In this document: positions 5,028 to 36,728 of the stretch, piece after piece
Layout of the letters: every line of letters starts with the position of its first letter
How positions within the stretch are numbered: position 1 is the stretch's first letter
Program-made: the position numbers and the translations under genes
Virus record (IMG/VR): IMGVR_UViG_2651869749_000010
Location: 1 to 37,428 of that record
Strand: one strand, 5' to 3'
Source of the DNA: a virus
Lineage: Duplodnaviria > Heunggongvirae > Uroviricota > Caudoviricetes
Length of the DNA stretch: 37,428 nucleotides
The notes under the pieces: generated by a model
What the model was told of the DNA's origin: nothing
The model's input: the letters and a program-made list of their open reading frames with translations, nothing else
Databases searched by the model: none

Positions 5028-7850
5028 ATGACGGCAGAGTACATCAGGGACTGGCAACAACCGCGCCACGCAGTGGGGCGTGAAGGAACGGGGATCCCCG
5101 CTCCTGAATCCGCGCTTTCCTCCTGGCTGGATGCCTACCGGGCAGAGAACGAGCGCCGCCAGGAAATGGCTGATGCGGCGTTCTCCGCCACGCCGCTGGG
5201 CAACCTGATTAATAAAAGCCTAGACGCACAGGAAAAACAGGACAAAACAATCACACTGGCAGGAGACGCCAGAAAACAGGCACGCGGCGCGGTAGATGAG
5301 GCCATGGCCTCACTGCGCCTGCTGCCGTCCTATCTGCGCGATCCGCTTATTCGCCACCTCTCCTTCCTGCGCAAAAAACAGGAAGCCGATCGTCAGCAAG
5401 GAAAAAACGCCAGGCAGGCAGAACGCTATGCGCGTGGGACCCTGCGCAAAATATTCGAACGTCTGGAGCGCACCGATCACCGCTGGCTGACATCGGGTTA
5501 TCGCTCCCTTGCCGGACGTGAACGCCTGGACGATTTGATTTACCTGCCGCAACTCAACAAACACCAGATACAGACGCTGGCCACCATGACGGCGGCGATG
5601 TTCAGCAGCACCTTCGAAAAACTCTGCGATGGTTTTGGCGCGACTGATGGCGAGCTGACCATGGATGTAACGCTGAAGGCGTATCAGATGCTGGCCCGCA
5701 TGGCGTTACACTTACACGCCATGCCTCCGCATTATGACGCACTGACAACAGACAAAGACCGGAGGCACGAACCGGACACAGAACTGCTGCCGGGCGCAAT
5801 CCTTCGCCTGACCTGTGCGGAATGGTGGAAACGCAAACTGTGGCTGTTACGTTGCGAGTGGAGAGAAGAACAACTCCGCGCCGCCTGTCTAGTTTCCAGA
5901 AAAACATCGCCCTATCTGAGCCAGGACGCGTTAAGCGAGTTTCGCGCACAGCGCGAGAAAACACGCGATTTCCTGAAAAGTTTCATGCTGGAAAATGAAG
6001 ACGGGTTCACGATTGATCTCGAGACGGTGTATTACGCGGGAGTAAGTAACCCGGTTCACCGTAAGGCAGAAATGATGGCCACCATGAAGGGGCTGGAACT
6101 TCTGGCCGAAGCCCGTGGCGACAAAGCGGTGTTTCTGACTGTCACCTGCCCGTCAAAATACCACGCCACAACGGAGAACGGTCATCCGAATCCCAAATGG
6201 AACGGGGCCACAATGCGCGACTCCAGCGATTACCTGGTTAACACGTTTTTTGCGGCGGTCCGCAAAAAACTGAACCGCGACGACCTGCGCTGGTATGGCA
6301 TCCGCACGGTGGAGCCTCATCATGACGGCACCGTGCACTGGCATATGATGGTCTTTGCACATCCGGAAGAAATCGACACCATTGTGTCCCATACCCGCGA
6401 TATTGCCATTCAGGAAGACCGCCACGAGCTGGGCAATGATATTACTCCGCGCTTTAAGGTGGAGTATGTCGACGGCTCAAAAGGCACGCCAACCAGCTAC
6501 ATCGCCACCTACATCGGAAAGAACCTGGACAGCCGCGCCGTGGATGGCATCGACCCGAAAACGGACAAGCCACGCGTGGACCACGAAACCGGAAAATCAA
6601 TGGCCGAGAGCGTGGAACGCGCCATCGGCTGGGCGCGTCTTCACCGCGTCCGCCAGTTCCAGTTCTTTGGTATCCCCTCCCGTCAGGTATGGCGTGAACT
6701 CCGCCGCCTTGCCAGTCAGATGGCCCGCAACCCGGAAGGTCCACAACGTCTGGAAAATGACGCAATGGATGCGGTACTCGCTGCCGCTGATGCCGGGTGT
6801 TTTGCCACCTACATTGAGAAACAGGGTGGCGTACTTGTTCCACGCAAAGACTACCTGATTCGCACCGCCTACGACCTCGCAGAAGAGCTGAACGATTACG
6901 GCGAGCAAAGCGTACAGATTTACGGGATCTGGTCGCCACAAATCGGGGAATCTTCCCGCGTGTGCACGCACCCGGATAACTGGAAGCTGGTAAGACGTAA
7001 ACCGGAAGCGGAAGACAGCGCCCGCGAAAATGGTTTTGACCTTCAGGGCGGCCCTGCCGCCCCTTGGACTCGTGGCAATAACTGTCCCCGTGTACAGGAA
7101 ACGGACAACAACGGGACAGAACAGCCGGAAGAACGGCCAGCACCGTGGCCGCAGCTCCCTGACGGCGTTGAAGTGAACGAATGGATGCGCTCACTGAAAC
7201 GGCACGAACGCCGGGCGCTGATGCGTTCGCTTCGTGACAAACAGGCAAAAAACAGCAGTGATGAAATGCAGAGCTGGACACAGAGCCGCAAACAGCAGCG
7301 GCCTTTGCCTGATAACCACGAATTACTCGCTAAAGAATGGCGGGAGTCTGCTGAATCTCTCGGCCTGCATATCGGTGAACAGCAGATGCAGCACCTGTTA
7401 CGGGGCGGCAGTCTGTACGTTGACGGCAGCATCATTGCACCGCAGGGATTTGAAATTGTACGCAAACCGGATACCCGACCGGACAGCCGGATCACGCAGC
7501 TCTGGCAGCGCCTGAGCCGTAACCACGGCGTAAGCAGCACGGAGATCCGCCATAACCCGGTCGCCAGCTATCTGGAACAGCTGGGGGCATCAGACCCCGA
7601 AGCCGCCGCACGCCTGGCATCCACACTTCAGCAAGACCAGAACACCATGAAAACACCCGTTACCGTGCTTTCTGACATGCTGCGCGCCATCCGCGACGCA
7701 GAGCACGCACAGAGAATCAGTGAAACCACTGAACGCGCCCGCCGCAAAGCAGACCTGCTGCGAGGTGGCCTGACCAGTGGAAACAAAAAACAGACAGAAA
7801 CGGGATTCACAAATCCCGTAAATGAGCAAAAAACGCGCCGCGATATATGA
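5028..7850 (+). CDS. A: Replication initiation protein (P2 gpA-like rolling-circle endonuclease)
   Basis: 940-aa ORF with HUH-type motif (VHWHMMVF) and paired tyrosines (SYIATYIGKN) characteristic of P2 A-family nickases; position after early genes. Confidence 0.85.
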   Translation: MTAEYIRDWQQPRHAVGREGTGIPAPESALSSWLDAYRAENERRQEMADAAFSATPLGNLINKSLDAQEKQDKTITLAGDARKQARGAVDEAMASLRLLPSYLRDPLIRHLSFLRKKQEADRQQGKNARQAERYARGTLRKIFERLERTDHRWLTSGYRSLAGRERLDDLIYLPQLNKHQIQTLATMTAAMFSSTFEKLCDGFGATDGELTMDVTLKAYQMLARMALHLHAMPPHYDALTTDKDRRHEPDTELLPGAILRLTCAEWWKRKLWLLRCEWREEQLRAACLVSRKTSPYLSQDALSEFRAQREKTRDFLKSFMLENEDGFTIDLETVYYAGVSNPVHRKAEMMATMKGLELLAEARGDKAVFLTVTCPSKYHATTENGHPNPKWNGATMRDSSDYLVNTFFAAVRKKLNRDDLRWYGIRTVEPHHDGTVHWHMMVFAHPEEIDTIVSHTRDIAIQEDRHELGNDITPRFKVEYVDGSKGTPTSYIATYIGKNLDSRAVDGIDPKTDKPRVDHETGKSMAESVERAIGWARLHRVRQFQFFGIPSRQVWRELRRLASQMARNPEGPQRLENDAMDAVLAAADAGCFATYIEKQGGVLVPRKDYLIRTAYDLAEELNDYGEQSVQIYGIWSPQIGESSRVCTHPDNWKLVRRKPEAEDSARENGFDLQGGPAAPWTRGNNCPRVQETDNNGTEQPEERPAPWPQLPDGVEVNEWMRSLKRHERRALMRSLRDKQAKNSSDEMQSWTQSRKQQRPLPDNHELLAKEWRESAESLGLHIGEQQMQHLLRGGSLYVDGSIIAPQGFEIVRKPDTRPDSRITQLWQRLSRNHGVSSTEIRHNPVASYLEQLGASDPEAAARLASTLQQDQNTMKTPVTVLSDMLRAIRDAEHAQRISETTERARRKADLLRGGLTSGNKKQTETGFTNPVNEQKTRRDI
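7800..7819. promoter_or_regulatory. 20-bp palindrome ACGGGATT-N4-AATCCCGT, copy 1 (inside the 3' end of gene A)
   Basis: Read directly: acgggattcacaaatcccgt; second near-identical copy 73 bp downstream. Confidence 0.4.
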
Positions 7851-7872
7851 AGCGCGCATAAAACAGGCAAAA

Positions 7873-7892
7873 ACGGGATTTCAGAATCCCGT
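7873..7892. promoter_or_regulatory. 20-bp palindrome ACGGGATT-N4-AATCCCGT, copy 2 (upstream of the parM-like fragment)
   Basis: Read directly: acgggatttcagaatcccgt, flanked by the same AAACGGGATT...CCCGTAAA context as copy 1. Confidence 0.4.
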
Positions 7893-7926
7893 AAACGATT
7901 AATTAATCAACATAAGGAAAAGCGAC

Positions 7927-8328
7927 ATGAAAATTTGTATCGATGACGGCTCCACCAACATCAAGCTGGCATGGACTGAGAACGGCGAACGCCGCAACGC
8001 CATCAGCCCGAACAGCTTCAAGTCGGAATGGTCTGCGCCGTTCGGTGGCACGCAGCCCGCGAACTACATGCTTGATGGCGTGCGCTATGGTTTTGATCCG
8101 GTCAGCGATCGCTTTGTCCAGACAACTGACACGCAATACCAGTACAGCGATGTGAATGTCATTGCCATTCATCACGCGCTGGTCAAATCAGGCATCACGC
8201 CACAGGAGGTGGATGTGGTTGTCACCCTGCCACTGAGCGAGTATTTCGACACAAACGCACAGCCGGACATAGCCAACATCAACCGCAAAAAAAGCCCAGG
8301 ATTCCCGGGGCGGTTCAGAGGAGAGTGA
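7927..8328 (+). pseudogene. Truncated ParM/StbA-like actin-type segregation ATPase (N-terminal ~120 residues only)
   Basis: MKICIDDGSTNIKLAW...YQYSDVNVIAIHHALVKSGI...VVVTLPLSEYFDTNAQPDIANINRKK closely parallels the recalled N-terminus of plasmid R1 ParM; full-length ParM is ~320 aa, here the frame stops after 133 codons and unrelated sequence follows. Confidence 0.65.
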
Positions 8329-8330
8329 GA

Positions 8331-8822
8331 ATGCAAATTTCACCGGTTACTCTTCGTGTTGCGAAGGCGTTTATATCCAGACATCACCGACACAATAAAC
8401 CCCCGGTGGGGCATAAATTCAGCATTGGTCTGAGAAATGATGCCGGAGAATTGATAGGTGTGGCGACAGCCGGTAGACCTGTTGCACGACATTTGGACGA
8501 TGGATTAACGCTTGAAGTAAATCGCACATGTACCACAGGAGAACGCAACGCTAACAGCGCACTTTATGGTGCTGTCTGGCGGGCAGCAAAGGCTATGGGT
8601 TATCAACGTTGTATTACGTACACCCAGGCAGATGAATCAGGAGCATCTCTCCGCGCAGCTGGTTTTGTTCGTGTGAAAGAGCTTCCTCCAAGAAAAAGCT
8701 GGGCGGAATCAAGCGTCGCCCTGCGGAGTAAACGCGATCCGGTCGGAAACGGTGGTGTTCCTCGTGTGCTCTGGGAAATCAGGAGAATGAGTACCACTGG
8801 CATTCGCATCAAAGGAGAGTGA
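8331..8822 (+). CDS. Hypothetical basic protein (163 aa), first gene of accessory operon; possible degenerate GNAT-like fold
   Basis: ATG 8331 with AGGAGAGTGA RBS/junction; segment ALYGAVWRAAKAMGYQRCITYTQADESGASLRAAGF is loosely reminiscent of acetyltransferase-fold proteins but lacks a clear G-x-G loop. Confidence 0.55.
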   Translation: MQISPVTLRVAKAFISRHHRHNKPPVGHKFSIGLRNDAGELIGVATAGRPVARHLDDGLTLEVNRTCTTGERNANSALYGAVWRAAKAMGYQRCITYTQADESGASLRAAGFVRVKELPPRKSWAESSVALRSKRDPVGNGGVPRVLWEIRRMSTTGIRIKGE

Positions 8823-9091
8823 TATGGCAACTTTGACAAAAAAAGAACAAGCATGGTTGAGCGAATTACAGGACGTTCTTGATCGCTGCCCATCACCGAA
8901 AAAAATTGGTTTTTACACCATTGGCGATAAAAGCATTTACCTGTATGACCTGCGCCGCATGGATGAAATCATGGAGGCTCTTGATAATCGTTCGTCAATG
9001 GATTGGTGTGTTGCTGTCCATGATATGAATGCAGGGTTTGATGAAAAGATTTTGTTCCCCTCATCAGTTGAAAGCACAGCAGGATAAGGAC
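8811..9091 (+). repeat. 281-bp direct repeat, copy 1
   Basis: Identity by eye with 9497..9777; starts at AAAGGAGAGTGAT, ends at TAAGGAC. Confidence 0.85.
8824..9087 (+). CDS. Hypothetical small protein (87 aa), copy 1
   Basis: ATG 1 nt after upstream stop; identical second copy at 9510..9773. Confidence 0.6.
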   Translation: MATLTKKEQAWLSELQDVLDRCPSPKKIGFYTIGDKSIYLYDLRRMDEIMEALDNRSSMDWCVAVHDMNAGFDEKILFPSSVESTAG

Positions 9092-9097
9092 TAACAC

Positions 9098-9508
9098 ATG
9101 ACCACTATTACCAAAGAACGTATTGAATTGTTCATTAAAAATCCGCTTGAAAACGGGCTTACTCGTGACGAACAAATGGAACTGGCACGAATTGCACTGG
9201 CATCGCTGGAAGCAGAGGCAGTTATGTTCTGTATATCAGGACAAAATGTAGATTCAGAAGAACATGTATCAACCAGCAAAGCGGTTGTTGATGCCTGGGT
9301 TGAAGAATGGAATCAGGTTGACGGAAGTCCTGGCGAACCACTGTACAAAACTATGCCACTCTACTATCACGCTGCCTTGCCAGCGCCGGTAGTGCCGGAT
9401 GAAATGTATTGGCAGGATGCGCCAGTTGAAGGCAGCAGCAAAGCGGCTGCATACGCTACAGGCTGGAACGCCTGCCGCGCCGCTATGCTTCATGGGAAAG
9501 GAGAGTGA
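9098..9508 (+). CDS. Hypothetical protein (136 aa) bracketed by the duplicated 87-aa gene
   Basis: 136-aa ORF; stop followed 1 nt later by ATG of duplicate gene; no recognised domain. Confidence 0.55.
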   Translation: MTTITKERIELFIKNPLENGLTRDEQMELARIALASLEAEAVMFCISGQNVDSEEHVSTSKAVVDAWVEEWNQVDGSPGEPLYKTMPLYYHAALPAPVVPDEMYWQDAPVEGSSKAAAYATGWNACRAAMLHGKGE

Positions 9509-9777
9509 TATGGCAACTTTGACAAAAAAAGAACAAGCATGGTTGAGCGAATTACAGGACGTTCTTGATCGCTGCCCATCACCGAAAAAAATTGGTTTTT
9601 ACACCATTGGCGATAAAAGCATTTACCTGTATGACCTGCGCCGCATGGATGAAATCATGGAGGCTCTTGATAATCGTTCGTCAATGGATTGGTGTGTTGC
9701 TGTCCATGATATGAATGCAGGGTTTGATGAAAAGATTTTGTTCCCCTCATCAGTTGAAAGCACAGCAGGATAAGGAC
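9497..9777 (+). repeat. 281-bp direct repeat, copy 2
   Basis: Identity by eye with 8811..9091. Confidence 0.85.
9510..9773 (+). CDS. Hypothetical small protein (87 aa), copy 2 (identical to 8824..9087)
   Basis: ORF-track frame 9399..9773 contains the identical 87-aa sequence from ATG 9510; the N-terminal extension is the overlap with the upstream gene. Confidence 0.6.
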   Translation: MATLTKKEQAWLSELQDVLDRCPSPKKIGFYTIGDKSIYLYDLRRMDEIMEALDNRSSMDWCVAVHDMNAGFDEKILFPSSVESTAG

Positions 9778-10359: not shown

Positions 10360-10884
10360 ATGGTCATTAATTACAAGCAGTTAAGAGAAAAACGGGAGCA
10401 GGTAAAGGAGAGCTTTCGCCGCAATGAAGATCTGACCCCGCTTGTACGCCTTGCCCAGGGCATTGTTGATGCTTATGAAATCTCGCTGGAGCTGCCATCA
10501 CAGACCTGGACAGATAGCGACGGTAATCGCCAGCATTACGTTTCATGCGGACTGGAAGCAGCCGAAGGATTTCGCAGAATGCCTTTATCCCAGATCCCTG
10601 CCGCTACCCCCAAAGCATGGGGCAGCAATGATGAGCGAAAACTGACTTTTAGTATTGAAACGGTGGTTGACGACACACCTGGCGAAGTCGCGTTCGTACA
10701 CACTCCTGTTTCGATCGCAATGTATAACGATGAAATACAGGTTCGCGTTAATAATAATATCGTGCCACTTAAAGAAGGTAATTCACCCTACACCACCGTT
10801 TGTGAAGCCATTCAATATTACGTTCTCTCTGAAATTGATAATCTCAAGCCTGACGGCACCCAGAAAATGGTTCAACTCTGGTAA
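10360..10884 (+). CDS. Hypothetical protein convergent with the portal gene
   Basis: Frame 10321..10884; ATG at 10360; no recognised domain; overlaps portal 3' end by 41 bp on the opposite strand. Confidence 0.45.
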   Translation: MVINYKQLREKREQVKESFRRNEDLTPLVRLAQGIVDAYEISLELPSQTWTDSDGNRQHYVSCGLEAAEGFRRMPLSQIPAATPKAWGSNDERKLTFSIETVVDDTPGEVAFVHTPVSIAMYNDEIQVRVNNNIVPLKEGNSPYTTVCEAIQYYVLSEIDNLKPDGTQKMVQLW

Positions 10885-11944
10885 AAAGGACAGCCCCATC
10901 ACGGGGCTGTTTTTCATCAAGAAGAGCATAAGAGTTAAAACGGATCACCTCTTCGCCAAGCCAGTCATTGATGTGCTTCATAGCCTCCATGACGGGCATC
11001 AGCTCGTTAATTGCGTAAACCCGCGCTGCCTTCTCCACATCGCCAAACGCACTTTTTTCGCCCGGCATCGCCCCCATCAGTTGCGGCGGAACGCGGTGCG
11101 CAGCCAGCACATCATCACGGGATGCCGCCTTAACATTCATGAATTCATCTTTTGCGGTGATCTGCTGGAACGGCAAAATTTGCCCCCCCTCTTTGCCCCC
11201 GTTGGGCGCATGAATGAGCACGTTTTTAAACGCACCACCACCACGTGCCCCCTGTAGCGTTTCTTTCAGGGAGTCCATGCTTTCGCGGTTTACCTGCGCT
11301 GCACCGATGTAGATGATGCACCCGGCGTGGGATCCGTTGTCGTAGTACAGTTTTCTGAACATGTCCGCCGAATGAGAAAGGCTGGCCGAGAGTAATGCGC
11401 CAAGATATTCCGGCATGCCGTAGATTTCCTGGTTAATATCCGGATTCATCAGGTGGCACACTTTGCCAGGACGAAACTGAAACGCGTCCTTGCCATCCTG
11501 CACATACCACCATGATTCAAGATCGCTTCCGCGTCGCATGTATTTCGCCAGGGCGTGCCGTAATTTAAGCGGTTCGCCGAGCATATTGCTTCGAAGCTCA
11601 AGGAATGCGTTACCGAACACAAACCAGTCCAGCGCCAGCGCCGAGAAATCCTGCCGGGAAAGCAGCGGGTGCGGGATGTAGCAACCGAGTAATACATTGC
11701 GCTTAAAGTAAAGCGCAGACTGATGCCAGGACGTTTGCCGGGCAGCTCTTGCCAGACCGTACCAGTCCACCGGGGTTTCATACCACCGCCCGTTATCAGC
11801 ACAGTACATATTGTCCAGCAGGTCATGCCCGGTCAGGCGATAAGGACCATCAAATGTGAATGCACTGAGCGATGATTCTTTCCTGAGCGCATCAGCGAGA
11901 TCAATGCGTGAACTCATGCGCACTTTTTTATTTTTTCTGCTCAT
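10844..11944 (-). CDS. Q: Portal protein (P2 gpQ-like)
   Basis: 366-aa ORF directly downstream of and overlapping the large terminase gene; size and position as in P2. Confidence 0.8.
   Translation of the reverse strand: MSRKNKKVRMSSRIDLADALRKESSLSAFTFDGPYRLTGHDLLDNMYCADNGRWYETPVDWYGLARAARQTSWHQSALYFKRNVLLGCYIPHPLLSRQDFSALALDWFVFGNAFLELRSNMLGEPLKLRHALAKYMRRGSDLESWWYVQDGKDAFQFRPGKVCHLMNPDINQEIYGMPEYLGALLSASLSHSADMFRKLYYDNGSHAGCIIYIGAAQVNRESMDSLKETLQGARGGGAFKNVLIHAPNGGKEGGQILPFQQITAKDEFMNVKAASRDDVLAAHRVPPQLMGAMPGEKSAFGDVEKAARVYAINELMPVMEAMKHINDWLGEEVIRFNSYALLDEKQPRDGAVLFTRVEPFSGCRQA
10889..10915. terminator. Bidirectional hairpin terminator between convergent genes (lies inside the portal 3' coding end)
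   Basis: CAGCCCC-atca-GGGGCTG stem with T-run on both strands (tttttcatc on plus; cctttttac on minus). Confidence 0.45.
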
Positions 11945-13695
11945 CAGAACTCCATAACTGTGAAACGCTCGTTTTCTCCTTCGCCGCCAATTGGTTCGTT
12001 AATGACAGCAAGCATGGTTGCCCACGCAAGGTCGCCGTGGCTGATCCCCCTCGCGCGGTCCGTTTCGTAAGTGATAAAGCCGCCCGGTGTTTTCACCTTA
12101 CGCACGGCGTTAAAGGCTGCGACCAGCTCGCGTTCGGCGCGATCGTATTCCCACCGCCCGGCACGCATTATTTGCAGCATTTTCAGTACCAGCGACCGTT
12201 TTGATGACAGCGTGAAGGTGTACGGAATAGCAGCAGGGAAAAACCGTTTCACTATCTGATAAACAGCCTCCCCGTTCCCGCCCGTCACATCAATGCCGAT
12301 GTGTTCCACGTTGTAGCGACACGTGAACTCTTCAATGACTCTGGCCTGTTCTTCAAACTCCAGCCCCTGAACGCGTCGCGTCTCCACCGTTCGAAAACGG
12401 CCACCAGGAACAGACGGAGGAACCACCACGGACACAGCGCCGCTGTCGCCGTTGCCACTGCTGCCGTTTGCGTCATACCCAATCCATACCGGACGATTCC
12501 CCATCGGGCGGGGAGCAAAAGGTTTCCAGTCTTTCCAGTCGTCGTATCCGTCAACACCACAGCCAATCAGGATATTCAGGTTAAATGCCGATTCCCCTTC
12601 GCGGACAAACTCACACATATAGAGATTGAGGAACTCGTCTTCGGTGTTTTCATCACGAATTTCATCAATATCGGTGTGTTTCCAGCCGTGATTAACCACA
12701 TCTTCCAGCGTGACAATTTGCCGCCACGTCCGGTCAGGGCAGATAAGCCCGTTATGCAGCGTTTTCCAGTCCACAGAAAAACGCTGGCGTTTATGCGTGG
12801 CCTTTTTCTCGTTCCAGCGGTCGCCGTTCCAGTAGGCGTATGCCTCGTGCGTTTCGGTGGATGGCGTGGAGAAGTAGGTGCGCCGCAGTCCGCTGAGGGT
12901 TGCCATAGCGCCAGCCACCTTGCGCAGTTCAGCAAAGCGACTGACCCAGAAAAATTCATCAAAATAAAAATTGCCCGTATAGGACTGCGCCGACGCAGCA
13001 GAAGTGCCGAGAAAATGCAGCTCTGCGCCGTTGGAGAGGATGATTTTATCGCCCCCTTTCAGCTCCACATCAACTTCAGCCGCGGCCTTCTGAATAATGC
13101 TTTTAAACTGGAACGCCTGACGACGCGACGCAGACAAAAAAATCTGGTTACGCTGGTAAGGTTGCGCCACATCGTCACGCAGCGCCATCAGCAGTGCTTC
13201 CTGTGCAAAATACCAGGTCGCGCCAATCTGTCGGGATTTCAGGATCATCCTGTTACGTATCCCGGCTTCCCTGCAAAGGGTCAGGGAGTCAAACCAGCCC
13301 CGCTGATGCCACTCCAGCCTGCTGATGATTTTTTCCCGCAGTGCGACAATCTGTTCCGGCGTGAAATGATTTTTGAGTTTTTTCGCCCGGCCTTTCTTTC
13401 CTGTGGCCGTCGCATCCGGCTGGCCATCATGCATTTTTTTAAGCTGCCGGGTCAGCAGGTCTATTTCCTTAAAGTCACCGCCTGTTTTATTCTGTTTTTC
13501 AGTAAGCTGGATGAGGCGCGCATCGATGGACTGCGTGACACGCTGCACGGGTGGCGTTTCATCCCACTGGTCGCGTTTTTTCCACGCATAAATCGTGTTC
13601 GGGTTTATTCCCATCAGACGTGATATTTCTGCGGGCGGATAACCCTGCCAGTAAAGTTGCCGCGCACGCTGGCGCACAAAAGCGTCCTGAATCAT
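11944..13695 (-). CDS. P: Terminase large (ATPase) subunit (P2 gpP-like)
   Basis: 583-aa ORF, size and position as P2 gpP; divergent from scaffold gene. Confidence 0.85.
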   Translation of the reverse strand: MIQDAFVRQRARQLYWQGYPPAEISRLMGINPNTIYAWKKRDQWDETPPVQRVTQSIDARLIQLTEKQNKTGGDFKEIDLLTRQLKKMHDGQPDATATGKKGRAKKLKNHFTPEQIVALREKIISRLEWHQRGWFDSLTLCREAGIRNRMILKSRQIGATWYFAQEALLMALRDDVAQPYQRNQIFLSASRRQAFQFKSIIQKAAAEVDVELKGGDKIILSNGAELHFLGTSAASAQSYTGNFYFDEFFWVSRFAELRKVAGAMATLSGLRRTYFSTPSTETHEAYAYWNGDRWNEKKATHKRQRFSVDWKTLHNGLICPDRTWRQIVTLEDVVNHGWKHTDIDEIRDENTEDEFLNLYMCEFVREGESAFNLNILIGCGVDGYDDWKDWKPFAPRPMGNRPVWIGYDANGSSGNGDSGAVSVVVPPSVPGGRFRTVETRRVQGLEFEEQARVIEEFTCRYNVEHIGIDVTGGNGEAVYQIVKRFFPAAIPYTFTLSSKRSLVLKMLQIMRAGRWEYDRAERELVAAFNAVRKVKTPGGFITYETDRARGISHGDLAWATMLAVINEPIGGEGENERFTVMEF

Positions 13696-36426: not shown

Positions 36427-36513
36427 TGGTACCCGGAGCGGGACTTGAACCCGCACAGCGCGAACGCCGAGGGATTTTAAATCCCTTGTGTCTACCGATT
36501 CCACCATCCGGGC
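36427..36513 (-). tRNA. leuZ: tRNA-Leu (anticodon UAA)
   Basis: 87-nt reverse complement matches recalled E. coli leuZ tRNA including CCA end and anticodon loop. Confidence 0.85.
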
Positions 36514-36525
36514 TCGGGAAGAAAG

Positions 36526-36599
36526 TGGAGGCGCGTTCCGGAGTCGAACCGGACTAGACGGATTTGCAATCCGCTACATAACCGCTTTGTTAACGCGCC
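36526..36599 (-). tRNA. cysT: tRNA-Cys (anticodon GCA)
   Basis: 74-nt reverse complement matches recalled E. coli tRNA-Cys. Confidence 0.85.
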
Positions 36600-36652
36600 A
36601 AATTCTTCAGGCCTTTCAGCCAGACATCCGCTGACGCCGATGCCTTTTAAAC

Positions 36653-36728
<76 letters not shown>

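What the first reader, a model, noticed from the sequence alone, without database searches (positions are those of the whole stretch)
7927..8328. Truncated ParM/StbA-like partition ATPase gene inside the prophage
The first ~120 residues parallel plasmid R1 ParM closely, then the frame diverges and stops; the downstream frame is unrelated. This looks like a remnant of an actin-type segregation module cut by insertion of the downstream cassette, and hints at a plasmid-derived ancestry for this cargo region.
Basis: partly seen in the sequence, partly recalled or inferred. Interest (0 to 1): 0.5.

Follow-up and report, generated by a model that had tools for sequence, protein, structure and literature searches.

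The report
Broken parM gene with IS scar
This is a dead 5' stub of the plasmid-type ParM/ParR DNA-segregation module that many P2-like E. coli prophages carry; a 1.6-kb deletion marked by a 22-bp insertion-sequence scar removed the rest, and public annotation already flags the stub as a pseudogene, so the finding is ordinary.

Summary
ORF 7927-8328 (133 aa) matches ParM over residues 1-123 (Pfam StbA_N E 1.8e-63; R1 ParM E 3e-41, 56% identity), followed by a 10-residue unrelated tail.

The window is a P88-like (Xuanwuvirus, P2-family) prophage. The ORF lies in the known variable hotspot between replication gene gpA and the portal gene. Relatives carry a complete parM-parR module there; it matches 1,307 of 5,426 complete E. 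coli genomes, almost always on chromosomes.

The proposed mechanism is wrong. Phage PhiR44_2 has the intact parM, parR and two small genes followed by the same downstream cassette (99.4-99.6% identity on both sides). The window therefore has a ~1.6-kb deletion, not a cassette insertion.

The junction (8296-8317) is identical to the terminal 22 nt of an IS629/IS1203 inverted repeat, so the deletion was IS-associated. The stub lacks the ParM C-terminal domain, two ATP-binding motifs and ParR. RefSeq already marks it as a pseudogene. Twelve genomes share this junction.

One thing is unexplained: two other deletion alleles break parM at the same nucleotide. Low interest; already known in kind.

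The parts
5028..7850 (+). gpA replication endonuclease (940 aa). Left border of the P2-family gpA-gpQ variable hotspot.
   Evidence: Pfam Phage_GPA E 3.9e-131. RefSeq names it 'replication endonuclease' in the matching genome.
7784..7898 (+). Two copies of a 42-nt direct repeat (7784-7825 and 7857-7898). Each holds a 20-bp palindrome ACGGGATTnnnnAATCCCGT (7800-7819 and 7873-7892). The second ends 34 nt before the parM ATG. Candidate parC centromere / ParR operator, retained although parR is gone. This role is inferred, not tested.
   Evidence: the repeat finder families D3 and I1. Pattern search found 2 hits against 0.16 expected. The repeats are conserved, with variants, upstream of parM in about 88 related loci.
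7927..8295 (+). parM 5' remnant: codons 1-123 of 319. It keeps the phosphate-1 loop DDGSTNIK. It lacks the last 35 positions of the N-terminal domain profile and the whole C-terminal domain.
   Evidence: Pfam StbA_N positions 1-123/158. R1 ParM residues 2-124. 365/366 nt and 122/123 aa identical to PhiR44_2 parM.
8287..8293 (+). A7 run; intact parM alleles have A6. It lies immediately before the breakpoint. The same run is a -1 frameshift site in other database alleles.
   Evidence: Junction comparison. Frameshifted 158-aa proteins P0011, P0018 and P0020.
8296..8317 (-). IS scar: the terminal 22 nt of the left inverted repeat of a 1,310-bp IS629/IS1203-type IS3-family element. The outer tip (TGAACC...) is at 8317 and faces the cassette. 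It encodes most of the ORF's unrelated tail.
   Evidence: 22/22 identity to the last 22 nt of complete IS copies in L008 and L009, ending exactly at the IS tip. blastn of the IS (positions 1289-1310) against window 8296-8317 gave 100%. RefSeq names these elements 'IS3-like element IS1203 family transposase'.
7927..8328 (+). The whole 133-aa ORF as reported: parM' plus 10 junction-encoded codons (SPGFPGRFRGE), stop TGA at 8326-8328. Pseudogene.
   Evidence: RefSeq PGAP annotates the identical locus as a parM pseudogene, 'incomplete; missing C-terminus'.
8318..8822 (+). Cassette leader GAGGAGAGTGAGA (SD-like GGAG) and the XF1762-family / Mom-like gene (ATG 8331). Its start lies 2 nt after the parM' stop.
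   Evidence: NCBIfam XF1762_fam E 5e-61. phrog_1384 'Mom-like DNA modification protein' E 4.4e-42. Pfam Mom E 7e-5, below cutoff. Sequence read.
8824..9773 (+). Rest of the downstream cassette: 87-aa gene (8824-9087), 136-aa gene (9098-9508), and a second identical 87-aa gene (9510-9773, inside a perfect 281-nt repeat).
   Evidence: phrog_1714, phrog_5117. Lambdoid ea22/eaA-region matches.
10844..11944 (-). Portal gene (gpQ). Right border of the hotspot.
   Evidence: Annotated as portal protein in L001, L002 and L003. ORF listed.

Best explanation
The ORF is a non-functional 5' stub of the parM gene. It comes from the type II (ParM/ParR) partition module that P88-like P2-family phages normally carry between gpA and the portal gene.

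An ancestor resembling phage PhiR44_2 had this gene order: gpA, parC-like repeats, parM, parR, gp19 (ClpX-zinc-finger protein), gp20, XF1762, 87-aa gene. An IS629/IS1203 element was at some time present just upstream of the cassette's ribosome-binding site. A deletion then removed nearly the whole IS together with about 1.6 kb to its left: parM codons 124-319, parR, gp19 and gp20. It left parM codons 1-123 joined to the last 22 nt of the IS inverted repeat.

Shown:
- the homology of the stub to ParM;
- the missing parts;
- the PhiR44_2-type reference arrangement;
- the identity of the scar to the IS end.

Inferred:
- The order of events.
- That the deletion was transposase/IEE-type IS excision with an adjacent deletion.
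- That the stub cannot bind or hydrolyse ATP, polymerise or segregate DNA.
- That its only plausible residual role is passive. The parM promoter and leader, no longer repressed by ParR, may feed transcription and coupled translation into the XF1762/Mom-like gene, whose ATG lies 2 nt after the stub's stop codon.
For: Homology and extent:
- Pfam StbA_N covers profile positions 1-123 of 158 only; R1 ParM residues 2-124.
- The full-length relative has StbA_N 1-157 plus the ParM C-terminal domain 159-316. It aligns end to end with R1 ParM (E 2.5e-93), including DLGGTTLD and GGGAE, both beyond residue 123.
- ParR (Pfam Plasmid_stab_B, E 2.5e-24) follows parM in relatives.
- tblastn finds no ParM C-terminus, ParR, gp19 or gp20 anywhere in the window.

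Deletion rather than insertion:
- Window 7000-8292 matches L002 1501-2793 at 99.4%.
- Window 8315-9091 matches L002 4397-5173 at 99.6%.
- L002 2794-4396 is absent from the window.

IS scar:
- Window 8296-8317 is 22/22 identical to the extreme tip of complete 1,310-bp IS copies.
- The literature reports deletions from a few nt to >40 kb adjacent to IS629 during IEE-dependent excision (PMC9943667).

Rarity and annotation:
- 12 of 5,426 complete genomes share this junction, against 708 with at least 80% of parM-parR.
- PGAP calls the locus a pseudogene.
- The hotspot and its partition system are already described (PMC9122126).
- Pseudogene remnants are frequent in P2 hotspots (PMC13586616).
Against: - No genome, IMG/VR contig or metagenome contig with an intact IS at either junction was found. 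The IS intermediate is therefore inferred from a 22-nt scar only.
- A scar that keeps 22 nt of one end is not the canonical product of cleavage at the IS tips.
- Eleven of the 12 genomes with this junction have the scar fused to the 87-aa gene rather than to XF1762. The exact ancestral right-hand partner is therefore uncertain.
- The simple consensus scan found no sigma-70-like promoter upstream of parM. Read-through expression of the cassette is speculative.
- The ORF itself is intact, with a start codon and a GGA-rich RBS-like stretch upstream, and shows only 1 nt change in 366. A small protein may therefore still be made.
Confidence: 0.85

Rival explanations
1. An incoming gene cassette (XF1762/Mom-like plus small lambdoid-type genes) inserted into, or recombined with, parM. 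That event cut the gene and replaced its 3' part and parR.
For: - The cassette genes are mobile. They occur in lambdoid and other phages (H15-H25).
- They share a conserved boundary..AAAGGAGAGTGAnATG, at each gene start (family D2).
- Cassette content differs among genomes with the same parM junction: XF1762 is present in the window and L003, and absent in L005 and L006.
Against: - PhiR44_2 and E. coli genomes such as FDAARGOS_1077 have the same cassette downstream of a complete parM-parR-gp19-gp20. The 1,604-bp spacing and about 99.5% identity match. The cassette was therefore already there.
- The sequence at the junction is an IS end, not cassette or donor-phage coding sequence.
Confidence: 0.07
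2. The truncated ParM(1-123) polypeptide is a functional short form. Possible roles are a filament-capping or poisoning fragment that interferes with ParM of co-resident plasmids or phages, or one member of a set of selected N-terminal fusion proteins.
For: - The ORF is intact, has its native start region, and is almost unmutated (1 change in 366 nt).
- An identical allele occurs in 12 genomes from several countries.
- Two other alleles break at the same codon and are in-frame fusions: ParM1-123 fused to the gp20 C-terminus (191 aa, 143 contigs) and ParM1-123 fused to the gp19 ClpX-zinc-finger C-terminus (199 aa).
- It is 56% identical to R1 ParM.
Against: - Even the N-terminal Pfam domain is incomplete (123 of 158 positions). 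The phosphate-2 and adenosine motifs and the whole C-terminal domain are missing.
- The tail is encoded by an IS scar.
- It is rare compared with intact parM (12 against at least 708 genomes).
- Many other parM wrecks with different breakpoints exist: P0019, P0040, P0043, P0047 and the frameshifted alleles. This points to decay rather than design.
- No experimental data exist.
Confidence: 0.05
3. The truncation is merely a homopolymer frameshift or sequencing error in the A-run (A7 instead of A6), with the rest of parM still present out of frame.
For: - The window has A7 where intact alleles have A6.
- -1 frameshift alleles at this run exist in databases (P0011, P0018, P0020).
- The window also shows another homopolymer length difference, T5 against T6, at the portal 3' end.
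Against: - tblastn with full-length ParM finds only residues 1-123 in the window, in any frame.
- The sequence after the run is the IS end and then the cassette.
- The same junction is present in 12 independent complete assemblies and one IMG/VR contig.
Confidence: 0.01

Closest known systems
parM-parR module of P88-like (Xuanwuvirus) P2-family phages, e.g. Escherichia phages P88, PhiR44_2, 520873 and Citrobacter phage Shae_phiSM. This is the 'putative plasmid partitioning system' that Rousset et al. 2022 reported in about a quarter of E. coli P2-like phages.
   Same: - Same position, directly after gpA in the gpA-gpQ hotspot.
- Same upstream repeats.
- 365/366 nt identical over parM codons 1-122/123.
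   Different: The window keeps only codons 1-123 of 319. It has lost parR and two following small genes, and an IS scar replaces them.
ParMRC (type II, actin-like) partition system of plasmid R1 (PDB 1mwk and others)
   Same: Clear homology. The stub matches at 56% identity over 123 residues, E 3e-41. Full-length phage ParM aligns over residues 2-317 with R1 ParM and is followed by a StbB/ParR-family gene.
   Different: - This is a separate, chromosomal-prophage lineage: below 60% aa identity to nearly all plasmid ParMs, and 1,453 chromosomal against 2 plasmid places.
- The window copy lacks the catalytic and polymerisation parts and the adaptor.
- The centromere architecture is untested: two 42-nt repeats with palindromes, whereas R1 parC has ten 11-bp iterons (the R1 detail is from general knowledge).
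IS629/IS1203 (IS3 family) excision-associated deletions, promoted by transposase plus the IS-excision enhancer IEE (Kusumoto et al. 2011, as summarised in PMC9943667)
   Same: An IS629-type terminal repeat remnant lies exactly at a deletion junction, and the deletion of adjacent DNA is of kilobase size.
   Different: - No intact IS or IEE gene is present in the window.
- In five of the listed carrier records (NZ_CP048934.1, NZ_CP128916.1, NZ_CP124492.1, NZ_CM194009.1, NZ_CM190154.1) the scar is the only match to the IS-tip query, including strain 190693 (places_in_record = 1).
- The scar keeps 22 nt of one end, which is not the canonical precise excision product.
- The mechanism is inferred.
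AlpC/AlpA of Corynebacterium prophage CGP3 (prophage-encoded actin-like protein needed for efficient viral DNA replication; PMC4446434)
   Same: It is a precedent for an actin-like ParM-type system carried by an integrated prophage rather than a plasmid.
   Different: It is an unrelated lineage and host. It is functional and full length, whereas the window copy is a remnant. No sequence comparison was made here.

Membership tests
ParM / StbA actin-like partition ATPase (type II par) | Sequence homology to the ParM N-terminal domain (Pfam PF06406) | tested here: met
   E 1.8e-63, but only profile positions 1-123 of 158. R1 ParM residues 2-124, E 3e-41.
ParM / StbA actin-like partition ATPase (type II par) | ParM C-terminal domain (Pfam PF21523), completing the two-domain actin fold | tested here: not met
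   Absent from the ORF and from the whole window in all frames (tblastn). Present in PhiR44_2 ParM at residues 159-316, E 1.3e-68.
ParM / StbA actin-like partition ATPase (type II par) | Complete nucleotide-binding motif set: phosphate-1, phosphate-2 (DLGGTT) and adenosine (GGGAE) | tested here: not met
   Only the phosphate-1 loop DDGSTNIK (residues 6-13) is retained. In the full-length alignment DLGGTTLD and GGGAE lie beyond residue 123.
ParM / StbA actin-like partition ATPase (type II par) | Cognate adaptor gene parR (StbB family) immediately downstream | tested here: not met
   There is no ParR homologue in the window. In relatives the next gene matches Pfam Plasmid_stab_B, E 2.5e-24.
ParM / StbA actin-like partition ATPase (type II par) | Centromere (parC) with repeated ParR-binding sites upstream of parM | tested here: inconclusive
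   Two 42-nt direct repeats with 20-bp palindromes lie at 7784-7898 and are conserved in relatives. ParR binding was not tested and the repeats were not compared with R1 parC.
IS629/IS1203 (IS3 family) element | Terminal inverted repeat sequence | tested here: met
   Window 8296-8317 is 22/22 identical to the IRL tip of complete 1,310-bp copies and ends exactly at the IS terminus.
IS629/IS1203 (IS3 family) element | Transposase orfA/orfB, the second inverted repeat, and a 3-4 bp target duplication | tested here: not met
   Only the 22-nt tip is present. blastn of the whole IS against the window finds nothing else significant. It is a scar, not an element.
P2-family gpA-gpQ (cos-proximal) variable hotspot | Cargo lies between the replication gene A and the portal gene Q of a P2-like prophage | tested here: met
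   gpA at 5028-7850 (Pfam Phage_GPA, E 3.9e-131). Portal at 10844-11944 on the - strand (annotation of L001-L003). Hotspot defined in PMC9122126.

The most novel reading that the evidence does not exclude
parM nucleotide 369 (...CGCAAAAAAGC|) may be a site-specific breakage hotspot.

Three different deletion alleles share this left breakpoint to the nucleotide, with no junctional microhomology:
- the window type, joined to an IS629 tip;
- the L004 type, joined to the middle of gp20;
- the L090 type, joined to the middle of gp19.

The L090 allele lies on a parM background 6-7 nt different from the others, so at least two events were independent.

This could mean either of two things. One is a recurrent IS629 insertion site whose transposase/IEE-dependent excision leaves one flank exact and deletes the other. 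The other is selection for ParM(1-123) fusion proteins as new chimeric hotspot genes.
Probability: 0.15. Interest if true: 0.4.

Novelty: already known. Interest (0 to 1): 0.15.

Why it matters
It matters little. The ParM/ParR module in the gpA-gpQ hotspot of P2-like phages is already described (PMC9122126). RefSeq already marks this exact locus as a parM pseudogene. Pseudogene remnants are reported to be common in P2 hotspots (PMC13586616).

The useful outputs are corrections:
- The truncation arose by an IS-associated deletion, not by cassette insertion.
- The parM lineage is a long-standing prophage resident, not a recent plasmid import.

The only point that might repay further work is the recurrent breakpoint at one nucleotide of parM in three deletion alleles. 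If it reflects IS629/IEE activity, it would be a natural record of how IS excision remodels phage cargo regions.

Tried and rejected
1. Simple A-run frameshift: rejected, because no downstream parM sequence exists in any frame.
2. Origin of the 22-24-nt junction 'filler' within the window or the P88/PhiR44_2 loci: blastn-short found nothing. It was identified only after a short-query search of E. coli genomes hit IS ends.
3. Intact IS next to the 87-aa gene: 0 of 5,426 complete genomes.
4. Intact IS at parM nt 369: 0 genomes, 0 IMG/VR contigs, 0 metagenome contigs.
5. Metagenome scan for further junction types at the A6-GC site: it returned 23 loci, none in a parM context, so these were chance matches.
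6. IS629 target-site preference resembling AAAAAAGC: 29 distinct complete IS copies in IMG/VR showed no such consensus. Sixteen of the 29 lack a target duplication.
7. Locus L093 (P0029) appears to join the L004-type and window-type junctions in tandem. It is a low-coverage metagenome scaffold with a 6-nt overlap and was treated as a probable chimeric assembly.
8. Promoter scan: no sigma-70 consensus hit upstream of parM.
9. The palindromes as + or - strand RNA hairpins: variants do not consistently preserve pairing on either strand.
10. The first literature searches for ParM in P2-like phages mostly returned false word-start matches.
11. The search for homologous proteins returned only short or fragmentary cluster representatives. 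It could not give a length distribution of the family. The DNA counts were used instead.

Full report
**1. The observation**

The ORF at 7927-8328 (+, 133 aa) exists as described.
- Residues 1-123 match Pfam StbA_N (ParM N-terminal domain) at profile positions 1-123 of 158, E 1.8e-63.
- They also match plasmid R1 ParM (PDB 1mwk) residues 2-124, E 3.2e-41, with 69 of 123 positions identical.
- After residue 123 the frame reads SPGFPGRFRGE and stops at 8326-8328.
- The next gene (ATG 8331) is an XF1762-family / Mom-like protein unrelated to ParM.

**2. Context**

- The window is a P88-like prophage (genus Xuanwuvirus, Peduoviridae, P2 family).
- gpA lies at 5028-7850 (Pfam Phage_GPA, E 3.9e-131).
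- The portal and terminase genes lie at 10844-13695 on the minus strand.
- A host tRNA Leu-Cys-Gly cluster lies at 36427-36728.
- The finding therefore sits in the cos-proximal gpA-gpQ hotspot of P2-like phages. Rousset et al. [quoted passage not shown]

**3. The intact module in relatives**

Phages P88 and PhiR44_2 have, directly after gpA:
- parM, 960 nt. It contains StbA_N at residues 1-157 plus the ParM C-terminal domain at 159-316. It aligns with R1 ParM over residues 2-317, E 2.5e-93, including DLGGTTLD and GGGAE.
- parR, 312 nt (Pfam Plasmid_stab_B, E 2.5e-24).
- gp19, with a ClpX-type zinc finger.
- gp20.

A parM-parR query matches 1,307 of 5,426 complete E. coli genomes, 708 of them over at least 80% of its length. 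It matches 1,453 chromosomal places and 2 plasmid places.

Against plasmids, the phage ParM is below 60% identical in 4,994 of the 5,000 counted records, and 41-52% in the listed rows. Only 6 records are at or above 95%. The module is a homologue of plasmid ParMRC, but it forms its own prophage-resident lineage.

**4. How the gene was broken**

- Window 7000-8292 aligns with PhiR44_2 (L002) 1501-2793 at 99.4%.
- Window 8315-9091 aligns with L002 4397-5173 at 99.6%.
- PhiR44_2 thus has the intact parM-parR-gp19-gp20 followed by the same XF1762 + 87-aa cassette.
- The window lacks L002 2794-4396, about 1.6 kb.
- tblastn finds no ParM C-terminus, ParR, gp19 or gp20 anywhere in the window.

The truncation is therefore a deletion, not an insertion of the cassette.

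**5. The junction is an IS scar**

Between the two homology blocks lies CCAGGATTCCCGGGGCGGTTCA (8296-8317).
- A short-query search hit the ends of IS3-family elements.
- In two complete 1,310-bp copies (L008, L009) these are exactly the last 22 nt of the left inverted repeat, ending at the IS tip.
- blastn of the IS against the window gives 22/22 at IS positions 1289-1310.
- RefSeq names the element IS1203 family, which belongs with IS629.
- The tip faces the cassette, so the IS body and the DNA to its left were lost.
- IS629 is known to be associated with deletions from a few nt to >40 kb during transposase/IEE-dependent excision (PMC9943667).

I infer an IS-associated deletion. The intact-IS intermediate was not found.

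**6. Distribution**

- Twelve of 5,426 complete genomes carry the identical junction.
- In 11 of them the scar is fused to the 87-aa gene rather than to XF1762 (L005 and L006).
- RefSeq annotates the locus as a parM pseudogene, 'incomplete; missing C-terminus'.
- In five of the listed carrier records the scar is the only match to the IS-tip query. The allele therefore travels with the prophage.

**7. Function**

- The stub retains only the phosphate-1 loop.
- It lacks 35 positions of the N-terminal domain profile, the whole C-terminal domain and the partner ParR.
- It cannot be a partition ATPase.
- It is nearly unmutated (1 of 366 nt), so the event is recent.
- Its stop lies 2 nt before the XF1762 ATG, with a GGAG inside its tail. 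The same '..GE* / ATG' arrangement links all cassette genes (family D2).
- A passive role in driving cassette expression from a now ParR-free parM promoter is possible. It is unproven, and no consensus promoter was detected.

**8. An unexplained detail**

Two other deletion alleles break parM at the same nucleotide (...CGCAAAAAAGC|):
- The L004/L091/L092 type is joined in frame to the middle of gp20 (191-aa product P0005, seen on 143 contigs).
- The L090 type is joined in frame to the middle of gp19 (P0002).

There is no microhomology at the junctions. The L090 parM background differs by 6-7 nt from the others, so at least two events were independent.

The adjacent A6 run is also a frameshift site. 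Other parM wrecks with different breakpoints exist as well.

IS629 target sites sampled from IMG/VR show no matching preference. I cannot explain the coincidence. An IS629 insertion hotspot with one-sided excision deletions is a guess.

**9. Verdict**

Its mechanism and its ancestry claim are not supported. The feature is an ordinary, already annotated pseudogene in a known phage hotspot. Interest is low.

Noticed in passing
window 8811-9091 and 9497-9777: A perfect 281-nt direct repeat gives two identical copies of an 87-aa gene (phrog_1714) flanking a 136-aa gene (9098-9508). PhiR44_2 and E. coli strain 190693 have a single copy and lack the 686-bp unit. The IMG/VR contig identical to the window (L007) ends at 9087, at the repeat.
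   Followed up: partly
window 8315-8343, 8809-8837, 9495-9523: Every cassette gene ends ...(K/R)GE* within a conserved AAAGGAGAGTGAnATG that overlaps the next gene's RBS and start. This looks like a shared module boundary at which genes are swapped. The same genes occur in lambdoid ea22/eaA regions.
   Followed up: partly
window 7784-7898: Two 42-nt direct repeats each contain the palindrome ACGGGATTnnnnAATCCCGT. One lies inside the 3' end of gpA and one lies 34 nt upstream of parM. They are conserved with variants in about 88 related loci. They are a candidate parC/operator of the phage ParMR system. They also score as terminator-like hairpins on the minus strand.
   Followed up: partly
parM nt 369 (window 8295); loci L004, L090, L091, L092: Three different deletion alleles share the same parM breakpoint to the nucleotide. 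Two of them are in-frame fusions of ParM(1-123) to the C-terminal parts of gp20 or of the ClpX-zinc-finger protein gp19.
   Followed up: partly
window ~10905-10912 (portal gene 3' end, minus strand): The window has a T5 run where PhiR44_2 has T6. The difference shifts the last codons of the portal gene (...LLDEKTAP* becomes ...LLDEKQPRDGAV...CRQA*, 18 residues longer). The ORF then runs into the convergent 174-aa gene. It could be a real variant or a homopolymer sequencing error.
   Followed up: partly
window 8331-8822: The XF1762-family protein (NCBIfam E 5e-61) matches the PHROG 'Mom-like DNA modification protein' (E 4.4e-42). It matches Pfam Mom only below the cutoff. It is a possible DNA-modification (anti-restriction) gene in the P2 hotspot, and it is widespread: the query (half parM, half this gene) matched 1,364 genomes.
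   Followed up: no
IMG/VR loci L118-L237 (IS629/IS1203 copies in phage contigs): Of 29 distinct complete IS copies with both flanks available, 16 lack a target-site duplication. This suggests frequent IS-associated rearrangement in prophages.
   Followed up: no
locus L093 (ENA metagenome scaffold, 1,878 nt): This scaffold carries the L004-type junction followed 54 nt later by the window-type junction. It is probably a chimeric assembly of two co-occurring alleles, but a real tandem structure was not excluded.
   Followed up: partly
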